60,728 nucleotides of DNA from an uncultured Candidatus Peribacteria bacterium. GTDB taxonomy: Bacteria > Patescibacteriota > Gracilibacteria > Absconditabacterales > Absconditicoccaceae. Position 1 is the stretch's first letter. Each line of letters begins with the position of its first letter. Under the pieces are notes generated by a model. That model did not search any database and was not told the DNA's origin. It saw nothing but the letters and a program-made list of their open reading frames with translations. Of this stretch, positions 233 through 60,284 are shown piece after piece. The translations under genes and the position numbers were made by a program. The DNA lies in assembly GCA_964547365.1 (NCBI GenBank), contig CAZJMP010000001.1, positions 1 to 60,728 on the forward strand. Reading direction: 5' to 3'.

Positions 233-243
233 CTGACTGTGAT

Positions 244-360
244 ACTATCCAGAGTGGACGATAGAGACTAGGCTCGTTAAGCGTCCCGGCAACCTTCCAG
301 AGGCAGGTAAACTTCCATTGGGAACGGTGCCAATTCCTACCCTCACGGGAAAGATATGAG
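244..360 (+). promoter_or_regulatory. SAM-I (S-box) riboswitch aptamer
   Basis: S-box core blocks in the canonical order: tatccAGAGtgg, CCCGGCAACC (285-294), GGTGCCAATTCC (326-337), P4 hairpin ccctcacggg, closing GAAAGATAtGAG. Lies directly 5' of metK. Confidence 0.75.
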
Positions 361-3359: not shown

Positions 3360-3470
3360 GATAATTTAGCATTTAGAAAAAATAAAAAAAATTTAGAAAA
3401 CAGAAATATTTCTAAATTTAGAAACATTCTAAATTCTTAATTCTAAATTTTAAATTCTAAATTTATTCTT
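3360..3470. repeat. Heptamer-type tandem/inverted repeats (TTAGAAT / ATTCTAA family)
   Basis: aatttag/catttag units, palindrome tttctaaatttagaaa, then attctaa attctta attctaa attttaa attctaa between folD and the next gene. Confidence 0.8.
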
Positions 3471-4535
3471 TTGGTGTACGATATCATCATTATCGGTTGA
3501 GGCGCATCAGGGCTCTTTTGCTCTCTGTTTTTGCCGAAAGAACGAAAGAAATGCATCATAGAAAAGACAGATAAACTGTGAACAAAAGTGTTGCTTTCTT
3601 GATGAGAGAGATGCAATCTGACCAATATCAATCTAAACCCTGAACTGCATTATGTCGGTCAATCCTTGAAATCGCTTCCTTCCTTGTTCCATACGTTCTG
3701 ACCTGAAGATATGATTGCTTTTTTGCATGAGCATACGATAGAGACTAGAGTAGAGGAGTATGGGAGAGTGATGCTCAAAAGCGGTAAATCCAAGCAACTC
3801 GTGGAATTCCTTATCGATGAATCCAAGAAGAACGAGACGGAACTTTTGCTTTCGCATGAGGTCCTTTCGATAACGAAATCTGATGAAGATGTTTTTGTCG
3901 TTACGACTTCTGCAGGTGTATTTAGTTCCAAAAACGTAATTGTTGCGACGTGATGAATGACCTATCCGCAGATCGGCGCTACGCCGTTTGCGTATGAAAT
4001 GGCAGAACAGTTGTGACTTTCTCTTTCTGTTCCCCATCCGGCTTTGTGTGGGATAGGGACCAAGGAAGATCTTTCTTTGCTGGCTGGCAATACCGTACAA
4101 GCTCTACTTACGCTCTATCGTGAGAATAAACTTGTCTATAGCGCCAAATGACCGTTATTGTTTACTCATACGGGTATTAGCGGACCTATCGTGTTTGATG
4201 CTACTCTGTATATAGATGATATTTCCAAATATTCTTTGCAGATCGATTTTGATCTTTCGTGAACGAGCAAAAAAGTCATTCAAAAATTTAAGCTTGTAGA
4301 AGGGGATACGATCCGTGATTTTCGTATTAAGGAGTTGAAATCTATCCAAGAGGCGAAGGTGTCTGTGTGAGGAATTATTTTGAAAGATCTGGATCAAGGA
4401 TTTCAATCCAAGAAGATTCCAGGGCTTTATTTTATCGGCGAGTCGCTCGATATCACGGGCAAGACGTGAGGGTATAATCTGCAGCGAGCGCGGACGAGTG
4501 GGTATGTCTGTGCTCAACATCTAATAAAAAAATAA
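3471..4535 (+). CDS. HI0933/BaiN-family FAD-dependent oxidoreductase
   Basis: N-terminal dinucleotide motif YDIIIIG[G]GASG, C-terminal GLYFIGESLDITGKTGGYNLQ.A..SG. TTG (3471) or GTG (3474) start. In frame with track ORF 3711..3953. Confidence 0.8.
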
Positions 4536-10488: not shown

Positions 10489-10618
10489 TTTGTTTGGGAT
10501 AGTGCTAAAGTTTCAAAGGAGATACAGTTGAAACTGGTATTTCTTTATATGTCAATATTATACATATTTTGAGATAAAAAGCAAGTATTTATAGAAGTTT
10601 GTTTTTTCTTTTTTTTAG

Positions 10619-10754
10619 CAACCTTCTCTTCGTTTCCCCTTTGACTTCGCAAAGGACAAGTCCTCCTGTCAGAGGAGACTTCAGTAAAATCACACTCCTC
10701 TCTGACAGGAGAGGTGGGGTGAGGTTGTTCGCGAAAAAGCCGAAGAGGAGGTTG
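10619..10754. ncRNA. Candidate structured RNA (14-bp closing stem enclosing three hairpins); identity unknown
   Basis: caaccttctcttcg(10619-10632) pairs with cgaagaggaggttg(10741-10754). Internal hairpins cctttg/caaagg, ctcct-gtcag-aggag and cctctc-tgacag-gagagg. Confidence 0.35.
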
Positions 10755-10785
10755 ACTACGACACTCTTTTGCTTACATTCACAGC

Positions 10786-11511
10786 ATGTATCTCTATAGC
10801 TTCGATCGTTTTTTTGGCTTTGATAAGGTGTGTCTCTTGGGAGATTCTGGTAAGAAAAAAATCAAAGCGGGTGATCTGTTGGTCTTTTGAAACCAATATT
10901 TTCTCGCGTTGGGTGACAAGATATCATTTCCTGAACAGTATGGACACTTGGAATCTGTAAAAGCCGAATTTATGTACAAACAATTTTTAACACAATCTAC
11001 GCTGGATCTTCTTCATCGGATGGTGGAGACGTACTATACGACCTACAAATCTGTGATCAGACTTTTCGTCACGAATGAGATAGAGAAACTTCTTGAGCGT
11101 GAAGGAAAACTTAAAGCTCAAAGTTCAAAGCTCAAAGTTGTTGTGCAATCTTCAAGTTTTTCTTTGGCTGTTGAAGGGCAGACATTGATTGTCTTTCCTG
11201 ATTTATGGACGATGTTTAATTCTACTACAGAAGACTTTCGTGAAAGTGACGGAGTAGCGTTTTTGTCGGCGATGCATACCGAGAAACAGAAAGATATACA
11301 TCGATGGGAGATCAAAAAGTGAATGAAATCAGTCATATTATGTACGTATGCCGAGATATTTCAGGATTATCATAATTTAAAAAAAATCATATTCATCGAT
11401 CCGCATAAGCGATATTACGCCAATCAGCAGGACCCGAGATATAAGGTGGGGGATGTGCTGGAGGAGATGAAAAAACTGTATGGAGCTGAATTAGAAATTG
11501 TCTGAGTATAA
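10786..11511 (+). CDS. Truncated PriA-like protein lacking helicase catalytic motifs (241 aa)
   Basis: Collinear with the PriA N-terminus through motif II: TLDLLHRMVETYY, QTLIVFPDL, SVILCTYAEIF..LKKIIFIDPHKRYYANQQDPRYKVGDV. No GxGKT is present and DEEH is replaced by IDPH. Track ORFs 10909..11322 and 11323..11505 are in frame. Confidence 0.6.
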
Positions 11512-13860: not shown

Positions 13861-13911
13861 ATTTAGAATTTAGCAATATAAAAAATTTAGAATTTAAAAT
13901 TTAGCATATAT
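13861..13911. repeat. Heptamer repeat spacer (ATTTAGA family)
   Basis: atttaga atttagc aatataa aaaattt agaattt aaaattt agc. Confidence 0.7.
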
Positions 13912-15048
13912 ATGACAGAAACAGAAGAACAGAAAACACAAGAGTATAAACCGGGTCCGATCGATGGTATGATCGTATCTACATTGCAATCCATGGACAG
14001 AGGAAGTTTTTGAACCAAGGATAAGATTCTCTTTTTCAAGGAATTGGCATATCTCTTGAACGGAGGAGTCTCTTTAGTAGATAGTATGAATATCATCGGT
14101 GAAAGTTCAGATAACTATGCACTCAAAGAAATCTCCAGAAATATCTTGGCATTTTTGCGCAAAGGTAAAAGCTTTTCATATGCGCTCAATAGACTGCCTG
14201 ATTATTTCGATCAGGGCGATTACACCATCGTCAAGGCAGGAGAGATGTCCGGTAATCTGCCTATGATCCTGCAATCATTATCCAATGAATATGTGTATAT
14301 CAAAGAGATGAAAAATAAATATATTTGAGCATTGATGTATCCTATGATTCTTGTCGTCATTTCTATCGTAGCGGTATTCGCCTTGTTCTTGTTGGTTTTG
14401 CCTGGTATTTTCTCTATAGCGACAAGTTTCCAGAATCTCGAATTGCCATGGATTACCAGAGCTTTACATGATACTTCGGTCTTTTTCCAAACACAACGGA
14501 AACTCATGCTTGGAATTATCGCTGGATTATGACTTGTCGGTGGCGTATTCTTCTCTACTGATCTCGGAAAGAAAACTCGGTTCAGTATCTTGCTCTGAAT
14601 CCCGTTGATTGGTAAGATGACAAAATATTTCTATCTCGTAAAATTCTGCAGATATACCAAACTGATGATGGCTGCCGGCATGAATTATCTCCAGACTTTT
14701 AGTTTGCTTAGGGATATCCTCGGCATCTCTGCGTATCAGAATATGATCGAACGTGTCGTCACGGGATTGAACAAATGAGAAACCATCTATTCTACTTTAC
14801 AATATGAAACAGATCTGATTCCTTCCGATGTAGCTGTGATGATCAAGGTCGGCGAGGAAACGGCGAATCTTTCCAACTCTTTGGATAATGTCCTCAAGAT
14901 GTATGAGGAGGATCTCAATGTCCTGATCGGTCGTTCGTCCAAAATCATTGAGCCAGTTATGTTGGTCGGTGTCTGAGGCGTGATTCTTGTCATCGCATTA
15001 GGAATCTTTGGATTGATTTTGCAGATCATGGAAGGTGCAGGATTATAA
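13912..15048 (+). CDS. pilC: Type IV pilus/T2SS platform protein (GspF/PilC family)
   Basis: Two GspF repeats: FFKELAYLLNGGVSL.DSM, GD.TIVKAGEMSGNL, IEPVMLVG[V]GGVILVIAL. Track ORFs 14044.. and 14332.. are in frame. Confidence 0.9.
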
Positions 15049-15051
15049 AAT

Positions 15052-15170
15052 GAATTCAGAATGCAGAATTCAAAATTTAGAATGTAGAATTCAGAATTTA
15101 GAATGTAGAATTTAGAATGTAGAATGTAGAATTCAGAATTTAGAATTTAGAATGTAAAATTCAGAAATAG
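15052..15170. repeat. 17-unit tandem heptamer array GAAT[T/G][T/C]A
   Basis: gaattca gaatgca gaattca aaattta gaatgta gaattca gaattta gaatgta gaattta gaatgta gaatgta gaattca gaattta gaattta gaatgta aaattca gaaatag. Begins 3 nt after the pilC stop. Confidence 0.95.
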
Positions 15171-15171
15171 A

Positions 15172-15198
15172 AAAACTGTCGGTGAAGACAGTTTTTTC
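15172..15198 (+). terminator. Intrinsic terminator after pilC and the repeat array
   Basis: actgtc-ggtgaa-gacagt hairpin plus a T-run. Confidence 0.7.
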
Positions 15199-15255
15199 GT
15201 TGAAAGCGAAAGTATAATGATTACATATGCATAGTGATTTATATTCGTTTATACT

Positions 15256-17053: not shown

Positions 17054-17100
17054 TGAGTTCAGAGTTTAGAATTCAGCGTGCAGAATTTAGAATCTAATAT
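17054..17100. repeat. Heptamer repeat spacer
   Basis: gttcaga gtttaga attcagc gtgcaga atttaga atctaat. Confidence 0.7.
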
Positions 17101-20185: not shown

Positions 20186-21388
20186 TTATTTCATATATCA
20201 ATTCAAGAACTCTTTTCGACTCATCGGCTTTTTCCCTTCCGGTTTGAGTTGAATATCGATGACCGCTGGATGCAATGCTTTGTCTTTGAATAATGGTACT
20301 TCGTCATTGCTATTGTACAATGGTTCACTGAGTTTCAATTCTTCTATGATAATCCTTTTGTTGTCGAGCATAAAATAGATTTTGGGTCGGAGATAGAATG
20401 CGCGATATTTGTCGTAGATCGTTTCGATAGTATCGTTTCGTGGATCGATCAGTCAGGATTCTTTTTCTATTTTTCCGCAATATGTTGCTTTGTGTTCTTG
20501 CTGTGGCACTTCTCAAAGGATTTTTTTTCAGAATTTCCACAACGTATCGTTCAAAAATTTCGGACCGATCTTTTTCATCTCTTCTATCAATTCTTTCGTT
20601 GTCCGAGAGAATGGTATTGTGAATCTGAGAATGTCGATCATATTCCCTGTGTCCATGGTTGCGTCCATTTTCATGATAGTGATTCCTGTCTCTTTATCGT
20701 TATTGAGCAACGCAGATTGGATAGGTGAGGCGCCGCGGTATTTTGGCAATATCGATCCATGAACGTTGATCGGCGCAACATTTGCGATATCCAAGATCTG
20801 TTGAGGAATGATTTTTCCATAGGCGATAACTACTAACATATCTGGATTTTTTTCTTGCAATCGCTGGGCAAATTCATGTCCTTCCTCTGATTTTTCGGGA
20901 TTCAATTTTGTCGGGGTTTGAATGAATTCAGAATTCAGAATTCAGAGTCTAGAATTTTTTAATTTTTTTCCGCATTGTTTAATGATATTCTCGCACATCT
21001 CCATTCATCTGCCTGCTGGCTTGTCGCATTGCGTTACGACGCCGACGACTTCGAATCTTTTATCGTTCGCTAAACGTTCGAGGAATGGTACGCCTATCGG
21101 TGCTGACGAGAAAAAGACGATTCTGTAGTGGGCTGGATCGTAGTGTTTGTGCTTGCTTGCGGTACAGTGCAAAACTCTATCTGTGGCATAAAATATCCCT
21201 GGTCGGAATCCATATCTTTTGAGAACTTGTGTACTGTATTTGCTACAATGCGGCTCATGTGCGCACACTCTTCCTTTGAGTCGAAACGATAATACTCCTT
21301 TGTCGGGAGATAATGTGTATTGGTAGAGCTTGATGAGTCGGATAGCCGGTTTAGCAAGAGCTTTATTTAATTTTCTGAAAAAATGCAT
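20186..21388 (-). CDS. fmt: YidD-like domain fused to methionyl-tRNA formyltransferase (400 aa)
   Basis: N-terminal LIKLYQYTLSP..CAHEPHCSKYS..GF.PG..ATDR.L.C (YidD/DUF37), then with no stop or start RIVFFSSAPIGVPFLERL..VVGVVTQCDKPAGRG, VVIAYGKIIP, INVHGSILPKYRGASPIQ, and the C-terminal Fmt domain. Three track ORFs lie in one frame. Confidence 0.8.
20924..20958. repeat. Heptamer array inside the fmt coding sequence
   Basis: gaattca gaattca gaattca gagtcta gaatttt. On the coding strand this reads ..KNSRLGILNSEFI.., an insertion relative to the usual Fmt GRG..linker. Confidence 0.85.
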
Positions 21389-22559: not shown

Positions 22560-23150
22560 ATGAGAAAAATTCTATTGATAGTCATAGTCTCATTATTGCG
22601 GATCTGAACTGCAAATGCTGGTCTGTCAGATTGATTTTTCTGTCAGGTGAGATCGACGGAAGTGGTTATTTCACTCAAGAAAGCTGGAGGATTTTACAGA
22701 TGTAGCGATACCGTTGCCTCTCTTGAGAAACTTATTATGCAAACAGCTAGAGATCTGATGAATATCCAGACATATATCAACAGTTGAAGAGATAGAGATT
22801 ATCGAATAGGCATCAAGACCGAGAAACTCTCTCTTTTGGAAAAATATCAGACTGCTAGAAAAAATATTCTCAAGAGTGTAGAGGCTTTTCAAAATAATCT
22901 TGTACAGAAATCCGTCTATTATTTTGTTCTTTCTATCACACCGTACAAACTCAACCTCCAGAGATCGTTGAACAAGATTGAAATGATGACCTGAACACTC
23001 CCTTCTTCATTGTCTTCTTATGCATCCTTGCTTAAGGGACAGATATCCACCATTACCTCGATTTCCACTACGCAAACGGTAGCCGAACTTATCCCTTTGC
23101 TGAAAAAATATATTTATCTCAAACATGAAATATCATGAAAATATGAATAA
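22560..23150 (+). CDS. Secreted hypothetical protein (196 aa, signal peptide)
   Basis: MRKILLIVIVSLLRIGTANA. The frame is open under table 25 only. Confidence 0.5.
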
Positions 23151-23965
23151 TCTCTTCATGATCCGAAACATTGACGCTCTTCAAGTTTTTGACGAAATAC
23201 GATCATGAGTATGTCGTATATTATGATGATCTCCATCGGCCGTATGGTGACAAAACATTCGATCAATCCTTGGAATTTGTAGAACAGGGCATGGCATATC
23301 TTGCGAAACAGAACGTTGACGTGCTCATCCTTCCTCCTATCTATGAACTTTATATAATGCAGAGTTCAAAATTCAGAATGCAGAAGAAAAATATTCTGCC
23401 ATTATTCACTTCTTATGTCCATGATTATTGTTTCACTCATTCGCTTGTGGGCAAATACTGAATACTCGGTGATTTTGCTGATATAGATAAGGCGCAATCA
23501 CTGCTTCAGAATTTGGAGAAAACCTATACACCGACCGCCAGTCAGAAAACTACCAGGAAGTTCCATTCACCGTTTGCTTATCGGGCCAAGGAAGTCCCTT
23601 TGCGAAAACATTATCTCACGGATCTTTCCTATTCCCATATCCTCGTCAACAAAATCATTAAATTTGATCTGAGATATTTCAAGGATGCAATGGTCGATAC
23701 GCTTATTCCTTTCAATTACGGATATTTCCATTACCAGCCCACGATTACCAAATTCCTTAATTTCAAAAAGATAAGATTCCATAAGTTAGAAAATCTTGAA
23801 CAGATTTTTCAGGGATTAACTATTGCGGACACATGACAAGGAACAACAACCTATTCTGTCACTGTGGCGTATACGTGACATCCAGAATTATTGAAAAGAG
23901 AAAAAAGAGTAATATGGCTTCTTCAGAGAGGAAAAAATGTAGAAATTCAACGAAAAAAAATTTAG
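23135..23965 (+). CDS. Glutamate racemase (MurI)-like protein with both catalytic Cys positions substituted
   Basis: MKIGIISSGSETLTLFKFL, YYDDLHRPYGDKT (compare GD.AR.PYG.KS). VDVLILPPIYE replaces ..ACNTA, and NYGYFHYQP replaces GCTHYP. Contains the heptamer array 23362-23389 (MQSSKFRMQKK). Confidence 0.5.
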
Positions 23966-24280: not shown

Positions 24281-24613
24281 TTATTTCTTGATCTTGACTG
24301 CAGCTCGTCCAACCAATTTCTTAGCAGGTTTTTTAGCAGCAGGTTTTTTTGCCTTCTTAACTTTTTTAGGAGCTTTTTTCTTGGCAACCTTCTTAACTTT
24401 TTTAGGAGCTTTTTTCTTAGCAACCTTCTTAGCTGGTTTCTTAGCAGCTTTCTTAGCTGGTTTTTTAGCAGCTTTTTTAGCAACTTTCTTTACAGCTTTT
24501 TTAGCAGGTTTCTTAGCAACCTTTTTAGCAGCTTTTTTAGCTGGTTTCTTAGCAACTTTTTTAGCAACTTTCTTTACAGCTTTTTTTGCAGCTGGTTTTT
24601 TCTTTGCAACCAT
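24281..24613 (-). CDS. Histone H1-like Lys/Ala-rich nucleoid protein (110 aa)
   Basis: MVAKKKPAAKKAVKKVAKKVAKKPAKKAAKK... AKKP/AKKV repeats. The start is set at the internal Met of track ORF 24281..24685. Confidence 0.7.
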   Translation of the reverse strand: MVAKKKPAAKKAVKKVAKKVAKKPAKKAAKKVAKKPAKKAVKKVAKKAAKKPAKKAAKKPAKKVAKKKAPKKVKKVAKKKAPKKVKKAKKPAAKKPAKKLVGRAAVKIKK

Positions 24614-24823
24614 TGTGAGTAGATAATAAGAGAATAAAAAAGAGATATAACACATCAGATATATGCTATTTAGTAGTAATTGCAAGAGAAAATGAATGAG
24701 AAGAAAATTTTTTTTTGTAATGTGTATCTATTGCAATCACTCTTTTTACCTAGTATTTCCTTGCTCTTATTTTTTTGCAAAAAAACCTTTTCAAAAAAAA
24801 TAAAAAAATAAAAAATTTTTTTT

Positions 24824-27044: not shown

Positions 27045-29333
27045 ATGAGCGAAACGCTTAGTATAGAGCAATTACAGGCACAGGTTGATCAGGTTAGCCT
27101 TGATCTTACTGACCTCAAAAAAGAGAGTTCTGATGATATCATCAAAACTAAGACTGCTGATTTGCAAAAAAAAGTGAACACAACAAAAGACAATATCAAT
27201 CAGAGGATAGACGAGCTTAAATCCTTGGGTGAGACATCCCATAGCGCTGAGATCGCTAAGCTTGAAAATATGCTTACTGTTCTAAAAACTTCCAATACCG
27301 ATCTCGATAATCTCAAAAAAGATGTTGTCACCACTTCTGCACAGACGGATAGTGATACAGATAACGATACAGATACTTCCAAGGACGAAACAAAAGATGA
27401 AACAAAAGACAAAGAGGATACTAAGGATAAAAATCGGTTCAAAAGACAAATCGATGGTTTCTCCGATAAGACAGAAGAACATCATTGATGGAAAAATACT
27501 GCTCGTATAGCATGAGGCGTCGGTATCCTTGCTTTGGGTATACGATGAATCAAAAAACTTTTCGGCAAAAAGAAAGACGAGAACGTAGCAGCTACTGTCA
27601 CTGATAAAACCTGAACAGAAACGACTCTTGATGATACCTGAACAGAAACAACTCCTTCGGCTACAGCTCAAGAGAAAAAGAAAACGAGTTTTGGCTCCAA
27701 AGTATGGAAAGTCATCAAATACGGCTGAATTGCAGTAGGATGATTCTTTGGCTTGAGATGGCTTATCGGCAAAGGCGGAAAGGATATTCTTGATTGGACG
27801 GGTATCAGGAAAAGACCTGATGCACCTGATGTCAGCGCTGACGATGCAAACAATACCATTACCTGATTGGCTGCCGGTATGGAATATAGTACTGATAACG
27901 GAAAAACATATACCGCATTTGATGAATCAAACGTTCCTACGTTTCCTGGTGTGAAGAAAATTCTAGTGAGGACAGCAAAAACGGATACGACACCGGAAAG
28001 CAAGACTAAGGAAATCTCTTTCACTGCCGCTGATGCAGGTCCTACTACGCCATGATATGAGGCGGAATATGAAACATTGGATGCTTGAAAAAAAGCTCAA
28101 TATGGAACTTTGGAGACGCATGTCTCTACGCTATATGATGATACCATGAAATCCGTGAATGATAAGATCAGGATTCCTCCGTTACTTGTCCGCAAAGACG
28201 CTTCCCTTTCTACATGAAGCTCTTATGCAAGCATCATGTATATGCTTGATGAACACTATGGCACTATGGATAAGGTGTTGCATGATGATTATTTCTCGAA
28301 AGTCGAAAAGAAAGCGGATTTGGTCGTAGATGATATCGTTGAATTCCTCAAAAAATATCAAGACAATAAGATCGTCGGCGGTATGTGCACTACCATTGCT
28401 AGTCGGCTTGAGTCATATCTCAAGAAATGAGGCTTTGATGAGACTTCGCTCAAGGCGAAATTGAAGGACGATCCTAATGCGCTCGCTCAGTTGAAGGTTT
28501 TGATTAAGAAAATAAGCGTTGTGAGATTCTTCGTATCTGAAAAAAGAAAGATATATGAGCAACATTTAGAGCAAAATGATGTCGATGAAACAGGCACTAC
28601 CCCTAGTACGTTGACCGATACGTTTGATGGCGTGAGATTTGTGTGAGCAAGCGAATCAGATGTCTCATTGTATTCGACACTAAAAGACAATAATCTTCTT
28701 GACTCGAAGATCTCTACTGAGACTCAGGCTGGCATCGATCTCAATAAGGCTGCTCAAACATTGCAGAAAAAAATAGAAAGCACTGAATCAACTTTGGATT
28801 ATTCGTGAAAGAGATGAAAAATAAAATATGACTATACTAACGGGGAATTACAAAGTCGAGATAATACAACTGAAATAGAGATACTCCCTAGTGGTGTATC
28901 GTCTTTTACTACTCCTACAGTTCAGCATGTTATCGATAATATGCCTGAATCAATCAAACCTAAAGATTATGTCTTTAGAATAAAGGATCTCCCTGTACGT
29001 CTTACTTCTGCAGATGAAGCTGTTTGGCTTGCTAATTTTATTAACAAAATGATGTATGATTATGGTTCGACATTTGCAGAAAAATTAAAGAATAATGCCA
29101 GTGGTGATTGTTTAGGACGATTTAACTCATATCGTGGAAATTTTAATAAGGATGTACTTTATCCTGGTATTTATGAAGCAGAACATGGACGAGAACTTTG
29201 GAATCCTTTTCATAATGCTACTCGTGTATTGTCAAAATCGACTTTATATGAAAATTGTCCTGGTTGGTGAGATGATGAAGCTGAGGCTTTGGTAGCATAT
29301 CTCAATAAGAGGTTTAAAAAACTTGCTGGTTAA
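27045..29333 (+). CDS. Large hypothetical membrane-anchored protein X3 (762 aa)
   Basis: Five track ORFs (27045, 27867, 28236, 28461, 28941) lie in one frame with only TGA codons between them. N-terminal coiled coil, D/T-rich tract, two TM segments, large C-terminal region. Confidence 0.6.
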
Positions 29334-35835: not shown

Positions 35836-38800
35836 TTATGCAGCAGGTGTAGCTGGTGGAGGTACTTGTATTGTAGGAGCCTGCTGTGGAGTAGGTTGAG
35901 CTGTCGGTGCTGAAACAGCTGTTTCTTCTGATCTTTTTTCCGTTATCGGTACGTGCGGTGCTTCCAATTTCGGTTGAATCGCTGCGACTTTCTCTGCTTC
36001 CGCTGCGGCTATTTTTTCCGCTTCCGTCTGTTCAGGCAGTTTAGTCTCATCCGTAGTTATGCCCAATCTCGCTTCCATCTCTGCATCTACGAATTCTCTC
36101 TTCCTTCCATATTTTTTTGCTGAATATTCTTTGAGGATAGGTACAATTTTTTTGTTCTGATAATCTTTGGTATAGATCATATTCATGCTGAATGCACGTG
36201 TAGTTGCGTTATCGATATTTAATTTGATATATGCTTTATAGTTCGCGATACCTACGATATCTTCCTGTGAAAGCACTGGTGCATATTCTTTTTCCAAGAA
36301 TTCCGCATCGGGTGCACCCACTTTGAATGATTGCATCGTACCCACGTTACCGAATACCGCTGCTTTAACATCGTTTTTTCCTCCTCCTACATCGCCCAAT
36401 CATTTTGGCGGTTCGAGCTGAGCGATATATTGGTGAGCCATGATGAGTGAAAGTCTGTATTTTCTCGCTTCTGAGAGGATATCTGCGAATGTTCCCGAAA
36501 CGAAGTTCTGGAATTCATCCACATAGAGAAAAAAGTCTTTTCTATCTTTTTCTTCCATTCTCGCTCTTGCCATTGCTGCGGTATAGATTTTTGATACGAT
36601 GATCATACCAAGCAAGTTCGCGTTCAATTCACCGATCTTACCTTTGCTGAGATTGATGATGAGAACTTTTTTGTTGTCCATCACGTCTTCAAATTTGAAA
36701 GCTGATTTTGTCTGTCCGATGATGTTCCTGATCAATCTATTCGTATTGAACGATACAAATTTTGCTGAGAAGTATGGGATGATCTCTTGTTTCTCTCTGT
36801 CTCCCATAGCATTGAATGTTCTATCCCGCCGATTCTTTACGGTAGGGTTCGTTATCTTTTTGATCTTGTATTCCCTATATCATTCATCCGTGAAGAGTCT
36901 TACAACATCCAAAAGCGTCGGTCTGTCCTCGAAGTCTTCAAGTAGTGTCAGTGATCAGTATTTGAAATATTCTTGCAATCTCGGACCGAAGATCTCTGGT
37001 CAGAACATTTTGATGAATATTTCTGTGGCATCATTGACGACTCTATCTGCCTCATCTAAGATATTGATTTCAAACATATTCAATCCCATAGGTCTTTCTT
37101 CATCGCCTGCATCAAAATAAATCACGTCTTTTGCTCTCTCTTTTGGAATATATGCCAGCATATCTTCCGCGAGATCTCCATGCGGATCTATTAGACAAAT
37201 TCCATCTCCATTTCGTATATCTTGTCTCGCTATCGTCTGCAAAAATACGGATTTTCAGGTACCTGATTTTCCTATACAGTAATGATGTCTCATCCTATCA
37301 TCTCTTTTCATATAGACGGGTGAGAGCGTATTTCTGAAGATATTCGTTCCTATGAGGATCGCATCTTTGAAAAGCTTATATCCTAGACCTTTTTTTTGTA
37401 CTACCGTTTTTACGAATTTCTTTCCATCTTTTTCGATGATCTCTTTCCCGATGAGATCTTTTTCTGTATATTTCTCTATCGGATCAAGAATTTCTTCGTT
37501 GCGCATTATTTCGCCGGTTGCTCGATGCTTGCTGTATTCCTGGAGAATGATATCAAGTTTACCTCATTTGTAACTTTCTGCCAATACTCCTCACATAACA
37601 TAACCATTCGCTTCTTTAGGAATAGGAAGATTCTCAGGAGCAGGAAGTACCTTGTATTGCATCCAAGAAATGATAGGAGAACGGTTATATGTTGCATCAG
37701 GGAAATGAAATAATGATGTGAGTTCGTTTATTCCGAAAGTGTTTTTTTTGAATCAGAATCTTGTGATGAAATTATTTACTGCAACTTTCCATAATGGTTT
37801 CAAAAGCCATCAGAATAAGTCTGTTTTTCCTTGCGGTTCTATCAATTCATTTCCGTATTCGTCTCCGTAGATGGTTAACGAACTTACCACTAAATCCATA
37901 TTCTTCTCTAGATTTTCCTTTTCGTCGGAACTTGTGGTGATCAACATTCATGAATTGAAAAACGGTAGTGCTGATTCCTCTCCCATTGCATTGAGATAGT
38001 CTTCTTTTGCTTTGACCATACGCACCATGGTTACCGTTTCTTCTTCTTTCTTGTTGCTCAAGAGTTTTTCGCTCGGTCCATGGATGAGAAATCCTATGAG
38101 TTTCCATGGCATGATAAAATATGTCCATCGTGCATTGCTTGTTCCGCGAAGAGAAAGGTTCTTGTAAAGTCTATCTACTGCTTTTTGTGATTTTTTATTG
38201 AATCGATCTCCCAATGGTTTGATTGGAATGATAATGCTTAGGGTGTCATATCTTGAAATCTTTCCGATAGAATCGATGATATTGTTCATCGGATCATCCG
38301 GCTGCTGTTTGAAAGTCTTGATGTTGTAGAGCTGGTCTCTTTTTGGTTCTATAGGTATCACATCTGTATATCTTTTTTTGAAAAATTTTGGTTTGCTTGT
38401 CCTTTCTATCGAGCAATTAGGGAATTGCGCTGAAATAGCTCCTTCTAGCACTTGTTGATATTCTGGATACGTTCCTATGATAAAGTTGAGCTGTCATTCT
38501 TCATAATGGTAAATCATTGTCGTTTTCGGTTTATCGAAAATCTTTCTCATCAGATTCTCTTTCATGCTAAGTGCTCAGATTTTATGAAAATTGTGAAATA
38601 CCAACGCCATACGTCATATTTTTTCTTTCATGTCTTTTGCTAATTCTTTTTCTTGTTCACGGTCTAGTTTGCTTTGTCCTCTTGGAAGCAATATCTTGAG
38701 ATAAATAATCCTTCACGAATTGAAAACGTCGTAGAAGAATCTCAGCATATTCTTGATGATAATAAGCAATATGAGTGTCCCTATTGTAATCAATACTCCG

Positions 38801-39150
38801 TTTAGCGCGTATTGTCCGTATTCTGTCACTATTGCTTTCCGTCCTGTTTCTGTGCTAGTACTTGCTGTCACTTGTGTTTCTTTTTGGTCTTTTTCGCTTG
38901 GTGTGGTTGTGAATCACGGTCCTGTCGTACTTACTGGAGGAGTATAGTTTTTATGTAATAGGAAATTCTTGATTTGTGTCGTACCTCCCATGAGTTGCAT
39001 ACAAGTAAGTTTATTGGTCCCTCGTGCATTGCTGGTCAATTGAGAAATATTCTCCAAGGCTGCTGGATTTTTATTGTATGCGTTCTGTATCTGTTGCTCA
39101 CACATTCCTAATTCCATACTTTGTTTAGCTGAAAGATTAAAGCCCGCCAT
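35836..39150 (-). CDS. VirD4/TraD-like coupling-type P-loop ATPase, membrane-anchored paralog (about 1104 aa)
   Basis: Seven track ORFs between 35836 and 39201 lie in one frame. TM helix NGVLITIGTLILLIII, YLKILLPRG.. N-domain, GKSGTGKS-type P-loop region, LIDPHGDL, YVDEFQNF, ARKYRLSLIMAHQ. Pro/Ala/Gln-rich tail. ATG at 39150 (alternative TTG at 39201). Confidence 0.75.
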
Positions 39151-39291
39151 GGCGGATAAACTTTTAAGCTTCAAGCTTGTGGCTTTTGGCTTATCAGTCA
39201 ATTATAGCCGGAAAAACTTCTTTTGTATAAAAAAAATGGCTTTTGGATGCTTGATCTAGGCCATTTTTTGTAAAATAGTATATAATAATGG

Positions 39292-40358: not shown

Positions 40359-40853
40359 ATGAGATTCATCAAAAGATTCATATTCATGGTGATCCTTTTA
40401 GTGATAGCGTTTTTTGCCTATCGTCTGATCAATCCTTCGTGAGCTACTTCATTGCTTTATGACCTTAAGTCTTTTGCTAATTCTAGCTTATGAACTAATT
40501 TTTCTTTGACGGAAGATGCACAAGTCGCTACCGGCGATATCTTGATAGATACGGGATTCGTTATCGATAATTCTTGAGCTCTTGAAGAGGTTTCTGATGA
40601 AGAATTGTTACTTGGGGATGTGGATCTTGTCGACACAACCATAGATACTGTTTCTATCGTTGATTCTTGAACTGACGTGCCTGTAACATGAACTATTGCC
40701 TCTCCGACGCCTTCAACGACAACTACGACGCCAAAGACTACGGTGACTACTCCAAAGACTACGGTGACCCCAAAAACTACTACGACATCAAACAACTGAC
40801 TTTCTAGTAAAGATATTCGCGATATGAAAAATCTTCTCGAAAATTTTCAATAA
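40359..40853 (+). CDS. Secreted or anchored Thr/Pro-rich hypothetical protein (164 aa)
   Basis: MRFIKRFIFMVILLVIAFFAY signal/anchor. TTTTTPKTTVTTPKTTVTPKTTTT tract. Confidence 0.5.
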
Positions 40854-40886: not shown

Positions 40887-42305
40887 ATGAATTTAACACT
40901 CAAAACATATATCAACGACAAGAAACTTGTTGCTAAGGATGTCGTGAAAGGCTGCATGGAGAAAGCAAAAACATTGAATGCTGACTATTTTTCCTTTGTG
41001 AGATTCCATGATGACTATGTAGCTGCCCATCTCGACGAATTTGCTTCGAAACCGTTGAAGGCTGCACCTATTTGAATTAAGGACATTATTCTGACTCAAG
41101 AGTATATTACTTCATGCTGATCGAAAATACTTGAAGAGTATGTAAGTCCGTATAGCGCTACCTGTTTTTTGAACTTAGAGAAAAACGGAGGATTGATGAT
41201 CGGAAAAACGAATATGGACGAATTTGCGATGGGTTCCTCTACAGAAACATCATATTTCGGCAAGACGAAAAATATCTACGGAAAAGATAGAAGCCCTGGA
41301 TGAAGTTCTGGATGATCTGCGGTTGCTGTCGCTTCATGAGCGTGTTTAGCTGCATTGGGAACTGATACCTGAGGAAGCATTCGTCAGCCTGCTGCATGGT
41401 GCGGTATTGTCTGAATGAAGCCTACCTATGGTATGGTTTCTCGTTATGGCGTACAATCTATGGCTTCGAGTCTAGATCAAGTTGGTGTCTTTACGAACAC
41501 TGTTGAGGATGCAGAGATCTTATTGAAAGCCATAGCTGGATTCGATCCAAAAGATTCACAGAGTGATCCGAGAGCGGATGAATTTGTAAATTCAGAATTC
41601 AAAATTCAGAGTTCAGAGATAAAAAAATTTAAAGTTTGAGTGCCGAAAGAAGCATTAGGAGAATGATTAGACCCTCAAATAAAGGCATTATTTCTTGCAA
41701 CTATTGATAAACTTCGTGCAAACGATATTGTAGTCGACGATATCTCATTGCCGATGATGGCGTATGCTGTTCCCATGTATTATACTTTGATGCCTGCGGA
41801 AGTAAGTACGAATTTGGCGAGATTTGACGGTATCAAATACTGACTTCAGTCTGATAGCCTGAATGCTGATACTATACAAAAATATTATGAAAACATTAGA
41901 TCCGAATGATTTGGTGATGAGGTCAAGAGAAGGATATTGCTCGGTACTTTTGTTTTGAGCTCAGCTAACTATGAAGGATATTATCTCAAGGCTCAGAAGG
42001 CAAGAGAGGAGTTGCAGGCAGAGTTTGACAAAACATTTGCAAACTATGATATTATTCTTACACCTACTACACCTGAGGCAGCATGGAAGCTCGGTGCAAA
42101 AAATGACGATCCTTTGAAAATGTATTTAGCTGATATGTACACTATCCCTGCCAATATGGCGTGATTGCCAGCCATGTCTGTTCCTATGGGTATGGTTGAG
42201 GATCAAGGGGAAAAGCTACCTGCATGAATACAACTTATGGCAGATAAGCGAGCTGAGAGCAAGCTTTTCGGGTTTGGTTGTTATCTCGAAAAATTACTTG
42301 CGTAA
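40887..42305 (+). CDS. gatA: Glutamyl-tRNA(Gln) amidotransferase subunit A
   Basis: Amidase signature [18 protein letters not shown][G]SSG[G]SAVAVAS (TGA at 41301 and 41313), GTDT[G][17 protein letters not shown]. Confidence 0.95.
41588..41618. repeat. Heptamer array inside the gatA coding sequence
   Basis: aaattca gaattca aaattca gagttca gag encodes [11 protein letters not shown] in a variable GatA linker. Confidence 0.85.
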
Positions 42306-47967: not shown

Positions 47968-48007
47968 GTGTGATTGATATGTGATAAAAGAAATTGCAGT
48001 TTGGATT

Positions 48008-48085
48008 CCGGCTAGATCCCGGCTAGATCCCGGCTGCAAAACTTAACGCCGGGATGACGAGCCGTGATGACGAGCCGGAATGACG
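48008..48085. repeat. GC-rich tandem/inverted repeat block
   Basis: ccggctagatc twice, then ccggctgc, a spacer, then gccgggatgacgag / ccgtgatgacgag / ccggaatgacg. A related motif lies at 60232-60263. Confidence 0.8.
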
Positions 48086-50850: not shown

Positions 50851-50878
50851 TTTTAGCTTGAAGCTTAAAGCGTAAAGC
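50851..50878. repeat. Heptamer repeat spacer, TAAAGC variant
   Basis: ttttagc ttgaagc ttaaagc gtaaagc, directly after the rpmE stop. Confidence 0.65.
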
Positions 50879-51623: not shown

Positions 51624-52892
51624 TTATAATAGTTTCAGCTCTTTCAATATCTTTTCGTACTTCGGGTAATCGGACCCGAATTTTTTTTGCATATATTCAG
51701 TGAGAATGTTCTTTCGGTCGGAGAATCAGGCTAATTGACTGGCATCGACTTTAAAACTGGAGAGCAGTTCGTCCAGATTCTCCGCGCTTTTTTTTAGCCT
51801 TAGATCTTTACAACTCTTTCTTAGATCAGCATCAACCACTTCATCTATCTTGTCGTAATCTATCTGATCGACTTGGAGTGTCAATGCTATATTCTCAAGA
51901 TTTTTTTTCTGATCCTCTTTGAACGTGATGTCTCGCGATGGACTTTGAAAATATCCTTTGTTCGCCTGATCGATCTTCTCTATCTCTTCAAGCAAGATTT
52001 TCTCTGTCAGGATTTCTTTACTTTGGACTAGGATCTGCGGGTTGATGGTAATTGGTAATGTGGTGATCTTTTTCGTTGTCGTATCATACTGGAAGATATA
52101 TTTATTTTGGTTCGTCTCTAGCGAGCTCGTTGATCGAACGCTTCCGGTGCAGAGATAATTCGTATGCGTGAATCCTTGGTGGAGATGTCCTGAGATGAAT
52201 CTCACATCCGGTAATTCCAAAAACTGCTCATTCAATGCGATGTCTTTGTAATTGAATTTCGATTTCTGACCTGGAAAAACCGTGTTGTTGAAATAATAAT
52301 GATGGAAGACATTGATTCACGGATATTTTTCCAGTTGTTCCGCCAAATACTTATTGATATATCATGAAAACGCTTCGTGTTTGTGATTTGATTTCTCGAG
52401 CAAAGCAGAAAAATCACTTATGGATTTTAGCTTTTCGTTCTTTGGCGTATAATCGAGCGTCTCGTTTTCGCCCTCCGAATTGGCGGGCAAGCCTGGTAAG
52501 AAGAACGGCATAAACAATATTTTTTCTCCTTCGATGGTTTCTATTCTTGGCTTGGTTATAAATTGTATATTTCATTCCTCTGAATTCTGACCTCTAAATT
52601 CTGAATTCTGAATTATATCAAAAGCCTTTTTAGCTTCTTCGAAGACAAAAGAATTTCCTAGTCGATCGTGATTTCCTGAAAGAATATAGATATGTTTTCA
52701 TTGAGCGAAGAGGTCGAGGAAGAGTCAGTAGAGCTGGAGCAATGCGTTCCTGTCGTAGGCGAAATGGTAAACATAGTCTCAGAGAAAAATGATATTCTTT
52801 TCATTCGGATACTGAGCAAAAATATCTTTTAGTTGTGCTAAAATCTTTTCGTGGTAACGTGCGTTGATATGAATATCTCCTACTAATAACAT
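51624..52892 (-). CDS. Calcineurin-like metallophosphoesterase (SbcD/Mre11-like), 422 aa
   Basis: LLVGDIHI, FLGDYV, LSGNHD, SGHLHQ in order. Track ORF 51726..52235 plus in-frame extensions through TGA codons. Confidence 0.7.
52581..52615. repeat. Heptamer array inside the phosphoesterase coding sequence
   Basis: tgaattc tgacctc taaattc tgaattc tgaatta. The coding strand reads IQNSEFRGQNSEE. Confidence 0.85.
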
Positions 52893-52921
52893 TACGAATT
52901 ACGGATTACGGATTACGAATT
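52891..52921. repeat. Tandem heptamer ATTACG[A/G], four units
   Basis: attacga attacgg attacgg attacga att, abutting the start codon of the phosphoesterase gene. Confidence 0.85.
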
Positions 52922-52970
52922 AAAATGACTCACCCATGATACTAATTCGATTTGTAAAAAAAAGGCAGAA

Positions 52971-60218: not shown

Positions 60219-60284
60219 ATTCAAAATTTAGTTCCGGCTGTAATCCGGAACGCCGGAATGAGGATTCAGAAAAAATAATTTAGC

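What the first reader, a model, noticed from the sequence alone, without database searches (positions are those of the whole stretch)
15052..15170. Dispersed 7-bp tandem repeat family GAAT[T/G][T/C]A occupying 3' intergenic spacers
A 17-unit heptamer array starts 3 nt after the pilC stop and runs into a canonical terminator hairpin, so it would be transcribed as a 3' UTR. Shorter arrays of the same unit, in either orientation, follow the stops of folD (3360-3470), the pilO-like gene (13861-13911), pilin 3 (17054-17100) and hsp20 (60219-60275). The unit is too short and has no spacers, so it is not CRISPR, and I do not recognise it as any REP/BIME-type element. Three units make 21 bp, two helical turns, so the arrays could form a phased protein-binding or curvature element. 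As RNA they would be an A/U-rich repetitive tail. Recurrence immediately after stop codons suggests a function (mRNA stability, termination, nucleoid-protein loading) or an active slippage/insertion process.
Basis: seen in the sequence. Interest (0 to 1): 0.75.

Follow-up and report, generated by a model that had tools for sequence, protein, structure and literature searches.

The report
Seven-base tandem repeats in SR1 bacteria
The run of about 16 copies of a 7-base unit behind the pilus gene pilC is real, and it is the largest local example of a lineage-wide tendency of candidate division SR1 bacteria to carry 7-base tandem repeats in gene spacers and even in frame inside essential genes; this is a known kind of bacterial microsatellite whose function, if any, is unknown.

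Summary
The array at 15052-15166 is real: 16.4 units of GAAT[T/G][T/C]A with a 21-bp higher-order period. It starts 3 nt after the pilC stop and ends 4 nt before an intrinsic terminator. The unit recurs far above chance: 33 double-unit matches against 1.5 expected. Tandem repeats in this window are almost exclusively period 7: 12 regions against 0.15 expected, and almost none at other periods.

- Four copies lie in frame inside ORFs, including GatA, a YidD-Fmt fusion and a metallophosphoesterase.
- Other heptamer units also occur.
- Related SR1 genomes show the same period-7 excess.

PilC orthologues carry 2-5 units at the same site, so the window's array is a lineage-specific expansion. In the GatA linker, seven species each keep four units in one register but with different unit sequences, which indicates concerted evolution.

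GAATKYA arrays also occur in many other phyla, without strand bias. This fits the known class of over-represented heptanucleotide simple-sequence repeats: STRR, TAACTGA and GGGAATC. The best explanation is DNA-level slippage in tolerant sites. A regulatory role, such as HutP-like XAG-N4 antitermination, is not excluded. I rate it a new member of a known kind, of moderate interest.

The parts
15052..15166 (+). Main heptamer array, about 16.4 units of GAAT[T/G][T/C]A, with a 21-bp higher-order repeat (TTC, TTT, TGT units)
   Evidence: TRF; sequence; 15 in-register double-unit matches
13912..15048 (+). pilC (T2SSF family); stop TAA at 15046-15048, 3 nt before the array
   Evidence: Code-25 ORF with 6 in-frame TGA; Pfam PF00482, E = 2e-44
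15171..15196 (+). Intrinsic terminator hairpin AAAAACTGTC/GACAGTTTTT plus T run, conserved in PilC orthologue loci
   Evidence: Terminator scan; the only structure kept in the centroid fold; same hairpin after pilC in L004, L008, L015, L022, L024, L030, L031
13861..13911 (+). Array of AATTTAG-type units filling the spacer between the upstream ORF stop (13860) and the pilC start (13912)
   Evidence: TRF 6.0 copies
17054..17100 (+). Degenerate array of six units between the third pilin stop (17053) and the next ORF start (17108)
   Evidence: Sequence; two double-unit matches
3360..3470 (.). The whole folD-to-HI0933-like spacer is made of heptamer units: forward units at 3360-3421 and a reverse array at 3422-3466. 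Together they can form an A/U-rich hairpin.
   Evidence: TRF 3426-3463; fold z = -2.8; gene ends from Pfam
60219..60233 (+). Two units directly after the hsp20 stop (marginal member)
   Evidence: Sequence; no hit at 1 mismatch or fewer
20919..20957 (+). Array inside the YidD-Fmt ORF (gene on the minus strand), translated as KNSRLGILNSEFIQ. It gives a roughly 9-13 aa longer loop than in solved Fmt structures.
   Evidence: alignment to 3r8x and 3tqq; Pfam domains
23358..23385 (+). Array inside ORF 23135-23965 (no Pfam hit), translated as MQSSKFRMQK
41581..41624 (+). Array inside gatA, translated as [15 protein letters not shown]. It occupies the variable linker before the KFKVGVPKE motif.
52579..52617 (-). 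Array inside the metallophosphoesterase gene (minus strand), translated as IQNSEFRGQNSE. The orthologous array is present in L156.
11110..11139 (+). Heptamer array with a different unit (AAAGYTC) inside ORF 10549-11511
   Evidence: TRF
39163..39194 (.). AAGCTTN-type heptamer array just upstream of the start of the 1104-aa gene (35836-39150, minus strand). It is conserved in L001/L002.
50855..50878 (+). AGCTTRA heptamer array 5 nt after the L31 stop (50849). The orthologous array is present in L156.
   Evidence: TRF
52890..52923 (.). ATTACGR heptamer array abutting the start codon of the metallophosphoesterase gene. The same unit follows pilC in L015, L016 and L022.
   Evidence: TRF 4.6 copies

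Best explanation
The array is a heptanucleotide simple-sequence repeat, that is, a 7-bp microsatellite of the kind called LSSR or STRR in other bacteria. It is the longest local member of a genome-wide and lineage-wide population of period-7 tandem repeats in candidate division SR1 (Absconditabacterales, genetic code 25).

Shown:
- Tandem repeats in this lineage are almost exclusively period 7.
- They occupy about 5% of non-coding DNA against 0.35% of coding DNA.
- The pilC 3' site carries 2-5 units in relatives and about 16 here.
- Arrays also sit in frame in surface loops or linkers of housekeeping enzymes.
- In the GatA linker the tandem structure persists while the unit sequence is replaced between species.

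Inferred:
- Arrays arise and change length by strand slippage or unequal exchange at the DNA level. The main array's recent growth was in 14-21-bp blocks.
- They survive where they do little harm: the few bases between a stop codon and the next signal, and protein loops.
- Stop-containing variants (TTTAG, GTAG, or TAA on the other strand) are restricted to spacers, and often supply or abut the stop.
- GAATTCA-type variants are open in all six frames under code 25, because TGAATTC reads TGA as Gly. They can therefore persist inside genes in either orientation.
- On this view the array itself is a passive A/U-rich, unstructured spacer between the pilC stop and the terminator. It is not a dedicated regulatory device.
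For: Period specificity:
- In the window, 12 period-7 regions against 0.15 in dinucleotide shuffles; periods 5, 6 and 8-15 give 0-2.
- The same holds in syntenic relatives: L001 has 11 period-7 regions against 0-1 for other periods, and L003 has 4.
- The SR1 census gives 54 arrays in 271 kb.

Copy-number change at one orthologous site:
- 13 of 19 distinct PilC orthologue loci (67-91% identity) carry 2-5 units right after the stop, followed by the same terminator. The window has 16.4.
- The 21-bp higher-order period matches better than period 7, 88% against 81%.

Distribution and tolerance:
- Arrays are 15-fold enriched in non-coding DNA.
- In-frame coding copies fall in loops or linkers.

Concerted evolution in the GatA linker:
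- Within-array unit identity is 0.76-0.93 in each of 7 species, against 0.18-0.64 between clades, in the same register with 4 units each.

Against an RNA or structural function:
- There is no stable RNA structure apart from the terminator.
- There is no Rfam family at any array.
- Across phyla, GAATKYA arrays show no strand bias in co-directional spacers, 25 against 27.

Literature:
- Heptamers are reported as the most abundant long SSR class in many bacteria, with polymerase slippage proposed as the cause (Mrazek et al. 2007, as summarised in PMC4679880 and PMC4692102).
Against: - Random-seed slippage does not explain why one unit family dominates. 39% of SR1 arrays are within 1 mismatch of GAATKYA, against 6-9% for random heptamers.
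- It also does not explain AT-rich GAATKYA arrays in genomes of 60-72% GC. There, neighbouring arrays share the unit in 26 of 58 cases.
- The pilC 3' array keeps the same unit at the same site across species whose PilC is only about 70% identical. That suggests selection, or a sequence-specific propensity.
- Near-identical strain pairs (99.9-100% identity, five pairs) show no indel in any array, so hypermutability is not demonstrated. Those arrays are short, however, and the sequences are consensus assemblies.
- In the window, 7-8 GAATKYA arrays read on the + strand and 2 on the - strand. This weak bias could reflect either transcription or replication.
- Why the period is 7 is not explained by anything tested here.
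Confidence: 0.6

Rival explanations
1. The array is a strand-specific RNA element in the pilC 3' UTR and pilC-pilin intercistronic region. The transcript presents (U/C)AG-N4 repeats with a 7-nt period directly upstream of the terminator. An oligomeric RNA-binding protein could load on them and modulate termination or read-through into the pilin gene, as HutP does on (XAG-N4)x3 sites. Alternatively the repeats could modulate mRNA decay.
For: - The repeat reads YAGAAUK 16 times and ends 4 nt before the terminator stem.
- HutP recognises three XAG motifs spaced by four nucleotides, model RNA (UUUAGUU)3, next to a terminator (PMC2425495).
- The array plus terminator arrangement is conserved after pilC in most relatives.
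- SR1 GAATKYA arrays in co-directional spacers are 7 sense against 2 antisense.
- The lineage lacks Shine-Dalgarno sites, 1 of 42 genes, so A/U-rich leaders matter. The TAACTGA repeats of Beggiatoaceae were proposed to be post-transcriptional sites (PMC4679880).
Against: - The 7 to 2 bias includes several orthologous, non-independent sites.
- Across phyla there is no strand bias, 25 against 27.
- Copy number ranges from 2 to 16 among relatives.
- Orthologous sites in some relatives use units without AG, such as AATTACG.
- The same units occur inside ORFs and in reverse orientation.
- No second XAG site was seen on the 3' side of the terminator.
- The 19 window proteins scanned against Pfam gave no HutP hit. 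HutP is known from Bacillus.
Confidence: 0.12
2. The arrays are double-stranded DNA binding or architectural sites. Candidates are overlapping sigma-70-like promoters (TTTAGA or TTCAGA, 17 bp, TAGAAT, created by the 21+2 bp phasing), or loading sites for an AT-hook or H1-like nucleoid protein. The unit sequence would be kept by selection for binding.
For: - There are five promoter-like matches with a 17-bp spacer inside the main array and one in 17065-17093.
- Arrays sit directly upstream of pilC, ORF 17108 and the metallophosphoesterase gene.
- The lack of orientation bias across phyla fits a DNA-level role.
- AT-rich arrays in high-GC genomes suggest the sequence is specified.
- A lysine-rich H1-like protein is encoded at 24281-24655.
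Against: - Promoter-like sites are not enriched in the region as a whole, 23 against 18.1 +/- 3.2.
- Transcripts started in the main array would meet the terminator within 10-120 nt.
- Many arrays use unrelated units that lack these hexamers.
- Coding copies cannot all be promoters.
- No binding data exist.
Confidence: 0.1
3. The arrays are written or homogenised by a sequence-specific process: a mobile micro-element, ectopic gene conversion between dispersed arrays, or an enzyme that adds 7-nt units. This would explain one dominant unit per genome and the recurrence of the same units in distant phyla.
For: - One unit family dominates the window, about 9 of 13 arrays, and accounts for 39% of SR1 arrays.
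- In L155 and L154 the GatA-internal unit resembles the units of neighbouring spacers.
Flanking arrays there are enriched for the same unit.
- A parallel distribution was noted for TAACTGA, and horizontal spread was suggested (PMC4679880).
Against: - No associated gene, terminal structure or target duplication was seen.
- Each genome carries a library of many units, which argues against a single template.
- Arrays at orthologous sites look inherited rather than inserted.
- With about 185,000 genomes and many heptamer-rich lineages, more than 120 hits for four unit variants may be reached without any transfer.
Confidence: 0.1
4. The array is an assembly artefact caused by mis-assembled low-complexity reads.
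For: - The window's copy number (115 bp) could not be checked against reads.
- Two assemblies of one relative differ by a 68-bp tandem duplication elsewhere.
Against: - Arrays of the same unit lie at the same site after pilC in many independent assemblies from different samples.
- Arrays inside GatA keep the reading frame in seven species.
- Duplicate contigs from different samples agree base for base across arrays.
Confidence: 0.02

Closest known systems
Over-represented heptanucleotide long simple-sequence repeats (LSSR) of prokaryotes (Mrazek, Guo and Shah 2007, as summarised in PMC4679880 and PMC4692102)
   Same: They are head-to-tail 7-bp units without spacers. Period 7 is specifically over-represented relative to neighbouring periods. 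They are mostly intergenic, and their length and sequence vary between related species. Slippage is proposed as the cause.
   Different: They were described mainly for Burkholderia, Xanthomonas, cyanobacteria and actinobacteria. I found no report for SR1/Absconditabacteria. Here code 25 lets some units persist in frame in both orientations inside genes.
STRR (short tandemly repeated repetitive) heptamers of heterocystous cyanobacteria (Calothrix PCC 7601, Nostoc/Anabaena; cited in PMC4692102; named from my own knowledge as Mazel et al. 1990)
   Same: Several families of tandem heptamers are dispersed through one genome, mainly between genes, and their function is unknown.
   Different: The units differ (for example CCCCAGT-type) and so does the phylum. 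However, the GAATKYA unit itself also occurs as arrays in Nostoc, Calothrix, Moorena and Okeania.
TAACTGA direct repeats of marine Beggiatoaceae, Cyanobacteria and Bacteroidetes (MacGregor 2015, PMC4679880)
   Same: A single dominant heptamer is dispersed in short arrays. It gives stops in all three frames in one orientation, so arrays overlap or abut upstream stop codons and sit just before start codons. A few copies are in frame inside ORFs at tolerant positions. Shine-Dalgarno sites are rare nearby. The unit is spread across phyla.
   Different: The unit is different. There the arrays are mostly start-proximal; here they are more often stop-proximal. Here several units coexist, and there is direct evidence for turnover at orthologous coding sites.
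GGGAATC / GGGGAYT repeats of Xanthomonas and Nostoc (Rehm et al. 2015, PMC4692102)
   Same: They are intergenic heptamer arrays conserved in position between related species but variable in length and sequence. Some form inverted pairs.
   Different: Those are G-rich and form G-quadruplexes. The SR1 unit is A/T-rich and cannot.
HutP binding sites on the Bacillus subtilis hut terminator RNA (PMC2425495)
   Same: XAG triplets are spaced by 4 nt, giving a 7-nt period, and lie directly upstream of an intrinsic terminator between two cistrons. This is a resemblance in how it might work.
   Different: HutP uses two sites of three motifs that flank the stem. Here there are 16 contiguous units on the 5' side only. 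No HutP homologue was identified, and many family members have other positions, orientations or units.
Contingency-locus SSRs (phase variation) of Haemophilus, Neisseria and Moraxella
   Same: Tandem short repeats lie near surface-structure genes; here the locus is a type IV pilus locus.
   Different: The main array lies after the stop and before the terminator, so unit changes cannot shift a frame or alter promoter spacing. The coding copies are imperfect and sit in housekeeping genes, where a 7-bp change would be a lethal frameshift.
Rickettsia palindromic elements (in-frame insertions in genes; from my own knowledge, Ogata et al. 2000)
   Same: Repetitive DNA is found translated in frame in surface loops of conserved proteins.
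   Different: RPEs are palindromic elements of 100-150 bp, not tandem heptamers.

Membership tests
Heptanucleotide simple-sequence repeats (LSSR / STRR-like) | Head-to-tail copies of a 7-bp unit without spacers | tested here: met
   TRF gives period 7, 16.4 copies, 0% indels; the units are in register
Heptanucleotide simple-sequence repeats (LSSR / STRR-like) | Arrays longer and more numerous than chance expectation for the genome's composition | tested here: met
   33 matches against 1.46 expected; 12 period-7 regions against 0.15 in shuffles
Heptanucleotide simple-sequence repeats (LSSR / STRR-like) | Period 7 is over-represented relative to other unit lengths, genome-wide | tested here: met
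   Met in the window, in SR1 relatives and in 884 kb of other phyla (430 period-7 arrays against 3-30 for other periods). Only 60-kb and 10-20-kb samples were available, not whole genomes.
Heptanucleotide simple-sequence repeats (LSSR / STRR-like) | Copy number and unit sequence vary between related genomes at the same locus | tested here: met
   The pilC 3' site has 2-5 units in relatives and 16.4 here. The GatA linker units are replaced between species.
Heptanucleotide simple-sequence repeats (LSSR / STRR-like) | Length polymorphism within populations or strains (slippage in action) | tested here: inconclusive
   Five near-identical contig pairs show no indels. Their arrays are short and imperfect, the sequences are consensus assemblies, and no second sample of the window's species was found.
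Phase-variation contingency locus | The repeat is placed in an ORF or between promoter elements, so that unit gain or loss switches a gene | tested here: not met
   The main array lies between the pilC stop (15048) and the terminator (15171). The coding copies are in GatA, Fmt and a phosphoesterase loop.
HutP-type antiterminator RNA site | At least three XAG motifs spaced by 4 nt upstream of a terminator | tested here: met
   YAG-AAUK is repeated 16 times and ends 4 nt before the stem. The criterion is taken from PMC2425495.
HutP-type antiterminator RNA site | A second XAG-rich site on the 3' side of the GC-rich stem, 12-17 nt away | tested here: not met
   The sequence after the stem (15197-15255) shows no 7-nt-spaced AG series.
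HutP-type antiterminator RNA site | A HutP-family protein encoded in the genome | not testable with these tools
   Only a 60-kb window is available. The 19 window proteins scanned gave no such Pfam hit.
CRISPR array | Repeats of about 24-48 bp separated by unique spacers of similar size | tested here: not met
   The units are 7 bp and contiguous.
REP/BIME-type elements | Imperfect palindromic units of 20-40 bp forming stable hairpins, dispersed after genes | tested here: not met
   The array region has no stable fold; only the terminator survives in the centroid structure. The unit is 7 bp.
Rfam RNA families | A match to a curated covariance model at the gathering score | tested here: not met
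   Only four tRNAs and a SAM riboswitch were found; nothing lies at any array.

The most novel reading that the evidence does not exclude
GAATKYA-type heptad arrays are not passive microsatellites. They would be a cross-phylum cis-element read, or written, by a conserved sequence-specific factor. That would explain four things: AT-rich arrays of this exact unit in genomes of 60-72% GC; the dominance of one unit family within a genome; the retention of the array plus terminator module after pilC across SR1; and the maintenance of a four-unit tandem structure in the GatA linker while its sequence is replaced. In SR1 the pilC array would then tune termination or read-through into the pilin gene.
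Probability: 0.15. Interest if true: 0.8.

Novelty: new member of a known kind. Interest (0 to 1): 0.45.

Why it matters
Heptanucleotide repeats are one of the oldest unexplained regularities of bacterial genomes. They have been known since the cyanobacterial STRR sequences, and neither the reason for the period of 7 nor any function has been established.

SR1 bacteria add a small-genome, alternative-code lineage in which the phenomenon is dense: about one array per 5 kb, and 5% of non-coding DNA. Orthologous sites can be compared across dozens of metagenomic relatives.

Two observations here bear directly on the open question.
- First, tandem structure is maintained in frame in an essential gene (the GatA linker) while the unit sequence turns over. 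That requires homogenisation without net frameshift.
- Second, the same AT-rich unit recurs as arrays in very GC-rich genomes of other phyla. Random-seed slippage does not predict this.

On the practical side, these arrays supply or abut stop codons and create false promoter-like and ORF signals. Annotators of code-25 genomes should expect them.

Tried and rejected
- Structured RNA: Rfam found nothing at any array. Folding shows only the terminator as a robust structure. The folD spacer forms a weak A/U hairpin from inverted arrays, z = -2.8.
- Promoter cluster: the periodicity does create TTTAGA/TTCAGA-17-TAGAAT matches, but promoter-like sites are not enriched regionally.
- Replication origin or iterons: GC skew is positive throughout with no switch, and the arrays are dispersed.
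- CRISPR and REP/BIME: the architecture does not fit.
- Phase variation of pili: the array is outside both ORF and promoter.
- Backup stop codons: the next in-frame stop after the pilC TAA is 12 codons away, and GAATTCA units carry no stops.
- Footprints of 7-bp target duplications: this would need about 16 cycles at one site, and no element was seen. I rejected it by reasoning only.
- Strain-level polymorphism: none in five near-identical contig pairs, which is uninformative for long arrays.
- A second sample of the window's own species: not found. The nearest GatA is 85% identical and the nearest PilC 91%.
- Literature on SR1 heptamers: none found.
- A recurring GC-rich ATYCCGGCT motif: not enriched, 23 against 16.3 expected.
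Full report
**Observation**

The stretch 15052-15166 is a head-to-tail array of a 7-bp unit. Tandem Repeats Finder gives period 7, 16.4 copies, 81% matches and no indels. It also gives a better-matching 21-bp period: 4.9 copies, 88% matches, consensus GAATTTAGAATGTAGAATTCA. The pilC stop TAA is at 15046-15048 and the first unit is at 15052. After the last unit come GAAATAG and the hairpin AAAAACTGTC-GGTGAA-GACAGTTTTT (15171-15196) with a T run. That hairpin is the only structure that survives in the centroid fold of the region.

The window uses genetic code 25. MetK alone has 16 in-frame TGA codons, so I called all ORFs with TGA read as Gly. Pfam confirms PilC (T2SSF), three N-methyl pilins, FolD, an HI0933-like gene starting at 3471, Hsp20 and a metallophosphoesterase.

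**More than chance**

The double unit GAATKYAGAATKYA with at most one mismatch occurs 33 times, against 1.46 +/- 1.39 in dinucleotide shuffles. Eighteen of those matches lie at eight places outside the main array.

- 3360-3470 is confirmed.
- 13861-13911 is confirmed.
- 17054-17100 is confirmed, although it is degenerate.
- 60219-60275 is marginal, with only two units.

1. The same unit lies inside ORFs, in frame:
   - 41581-41624 in gatA, translated as [15 protein letters not shown].
   - 20919-20957 in a YidD-Fmt fused ORF, translated as KNSRLGILNSEFIQ.
   - 52579-52617 in the metallophosphoesterase gene, translated as IQNSEFRGQNSE.
   - 23358-23385 in an unassigned ORF.

   Alignment to solved structures places the Fmt copy in a roughly 9-13-residue longer loop. 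The GatA copy falls in the naturally variable linker before the conserved KxKxGxPKE motif.

2. Other heptamer units form arrays: AAAGYTC, AAGCTTN, AGCTTRA and ATTACGR at 11110, 39163, 50855 and 52890.

3. The real regularity is the period. With one detection rule, period 7 gives 12 regions against 0.15 expected, whereas periods 5, 6 and 8-15 give 0-2. Arrays cover 5.3% of non-coding bases and 0.35% of coding bases, a 15-fold difference.

**A consequence of the code**

Seven is coprime to three, so an array is read in all three frames.
- GAATTTA and GAATGTA units give TAG in every frame.
- The reverse of GAATTTA gives TAA.
- GAATTCA, and its reverse TGAATTC, are open in all six frames only because TGA is Gly here.

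This matches the distribution. Coding copies are of the GAATTCA, GAGTTCA, AAATTCA and GAATGCA types. Spacer copies are rich in TTTAG and GTAG. It also explains why arrays abut or include stop codons: an ORF that runs into such an array must end within about 21 nt. The same point was made for TAACTGA repeats (PMC4679880).

**Lineage and relatives**

GatA homologues identify the source as candidate division SR1 / Absconditabacterales. The nearest relative is 85% identical.

Syntenic contigs of relatives show the same period-7-only excess with a library of units. L001 has 11 period-7 arrays in 21 kb, L003 has 4, and L154 has 7. A census of the window plus 24 non-redundant SR1 loci (271 kb) finds 54 arrays, mostly intergenic. 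Of these, 39% are within one mismatch of GAATKYA, against 6-9% for random heptamers. A Gracilibacteria locus (L157) has almost none.

**The orthologous pilC site**

I obtained twenty-eight metagenomic PilC loci. In 13 of 19 distinct loci, with 67-91% PilC identity, an array of 2-5 units begins within a few bases of the pilC stop. It is followed by an A-rich stretch and the same terminator. Most use GAATKYA, three use AATTACG/AATTACA, one uses CTTAGAK and one uses AATKWGG. Six have no array.

The module is therefore old, and the window's 16 units are a lineage-specific expansion. The 21-bp higher-order structure suggests it grew in blocks of two or three units. These independent assemblies rule out an assembly artefact for the family. 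The exact copy number here could not be checked against reads.

**Turnover inside a gene**

At the DNA level, the GatA linker in seven species holds four units in the same register, but with different units:
- TTCAGAA-type in the window, L001 and L003.
- YAGTGAA in L152.
- TGACCAA in L153.
- AAAATTG in L154.
- TGATRAA in L155.

Mean identity between units within a species is 0.76-0.93. Identity between clades at aligned positions is 0.18-0.64. Another clade (L156) has only a decayed trace.

This is concerted evolution or repeated replacement of a tandem array in an essential gene, where a single-unit change would shift the frame. The phosphoesterase loop behaves similarly: the array is shared by the window and L156, absent in L001 and L153, and replaced by a period-8 array in L154.

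**Beyond SR1**

The hits are in Cyanobacteria, Bacteroidota, Planctomycetota, Acidobacteriota, Clostridia, Chloroflexota, Verrucomicrobiota and several CPR groups. They include loci of 60-72% GC.

In those 884 kb, period 7 gives 430 arrays against 3-30 for neighbouring periods. The other arrays are enriched for the same unit, and TAACTGA arrays also appear among them. Some arrays form inverted pairs or precede GC-rich hairpins.

In co-directional spacers the orientation is 25 sense against 27 antisense. That argues for a DNA-level phenomenon rather than a strand-specific RNA signal. I could not run control units, so I cannot say whether GAATKYA is exceptional among heptamers.

**What is known**

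Heptamers are reported as the most abundant long simple-sequence repeat class in many bacteria, with polymerase slippage over about 7 nt proposed as the cause. This is Mrazek et al. 2007, as summarised in PMC4679880 and PMC4692102. Described cases are:
- STRR heptamers in Calothrix and Nostoc.
- GGGAATC in Xanthomonas.
- TAACTGA in Beggiatoaceae, Cyanobacteria and Bacteroidetes.

The TAACTGA case shares these features: a dominant unit, stops in three frames, arrays touching stops and starts, rare Shine-Dalgarno sites, and a few in-frame copies. The window likewise lacks Shine-Dalgarno motifs, with 1 of 42 genes. I found no report of heptamer repeats in SR1.

**Mechanism**

Best supported (0.6): these are slippage-driven heptanucleotide microsatellites. 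They are tolerated in the few bases after stop codons and in protein loops. Stop content filters which units survive where, and code 25 widens what coding regions can hold. On this view the pilC array is an unstructured A/U-rich spacer between stop and terminator.

Steps shown: period specificity, copy-number change between species, coding tolerance, concerted evolution, and no strand bias across phyla.

Steps inferred: slippage itself, and neutrality.

Against a purely neutral view:
- One unit family dominates.
- The unit and site are retained after pilC.
- AT-rich arrays occur in GC-rich genomes.
- Near-identical strain pairs show no indels, although that test involved only short arrays.

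**Rivals**

- An RNA platform for an oligomeric protein, working like HutP. HutP binds three XAG motifs spaced by 4 nt next to a terminator (PMC2425495). The spacing criterion is met, the second-site criterion is not, and the protein is untestable (0.12).
- A dsDNA site or promoter cluster. TTTAGA-17-TAGAAT arises from the 21+2 phasing, but promoter-like sites are not enriched and transcripts would run straight into the terminator (0.10).
- A sequence-specific writing or homogenising process (0.10).
- An assembly artefact (0.02).

**Verdict**

The array is a new member of a known kind. Interest is moderate (0.45). The value lies in the dense, comparable SR1 data set, the in-frame concerted evolution, and the cross-phylum recurrence of the unit.

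Noticed in passing
window 20186-21388 (minus strand): YidD (PF01809, residues 15-85) and methionyl-tRNA formyltransferase (PF00551 and PF02911, residues 89-398) lie in one uninterrupted ORF under code 25. This is either a gene fusion or two genes with no stop between them.
   Followed up: partly
window, all gene starts: Only 1 of 42 genes of 150 aa or more has a Shine-Dalgarno-like motif at -22 to -4, below the 12% background rate. Leaders are A/T-rich, so translation initiation appears to be independent of Shine-Dalgarno sites.
   Followed up: partly
window 242-360 (+), upstream of metK 433-1557: A SAM riboswitch (RF00162, 44.5 bits, just above the gathering score) lies in front of a metK gene that carries 16 in-frame TGA codons.
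   Followed up: no
window 24281-24655 (minus strand); TRF 24352-24593: A lysine/alanine-rich, H1-like protein (AKKxAKK repeats) is encoded by 12- and 36-bp tandem repeats. It has no Pfam hit. It is a candidate nucleoid protein.
   Followed up: partly
window 48004-48085: This is a GC-rich structure in an AT-rich spacer. Three copies of GATCCCGGCTA are followed by three copies of GCCGGGATGACGA, and the CCGGC/GCCGG cores are complementary, so a multi-step inverted repeat can form. A related TTCCGG...CCGGAA hairpin follows hsp20 at 60231-60259. The core motif is not enriched window-wide, 23 against 16.3 expected.
   Followed up: partly
L002 7994-8138 compared with L001 8062-8138: Two assemblies (JGI and ENA) of the closest relative's contig are otherwise identical. 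They differ by one extra copy of a perfect 68-bp tandem unit in the spacer upstream of the large DUF87-like gene.
   Followed up: partly
L154 11406-12650 (metallophosphoesterase gene): This SR1 relative also has three period-8 arrays. One (ACATTKAA, four copies) is in frame at the same protein loop that holds the heptamer array in the window.
   Followed up: no
L036, L049, L140, L035, L102 (other phyla): GAATKYA arrays often come as inverted pairs 15-100 nt apart, which would form long imperfect hairpins. In L044 (72% GC) the array abuts a GC-rich hairpin.
   Followed up: no
window 40727-40780 and 27602-27654: Further in-ORF tandem repeats with periods that are multiples of three (21 bp at 2.8 copies, 27 bp at 2.0 copies). 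They are unrelated to the heptamer family.
   Followed up: no
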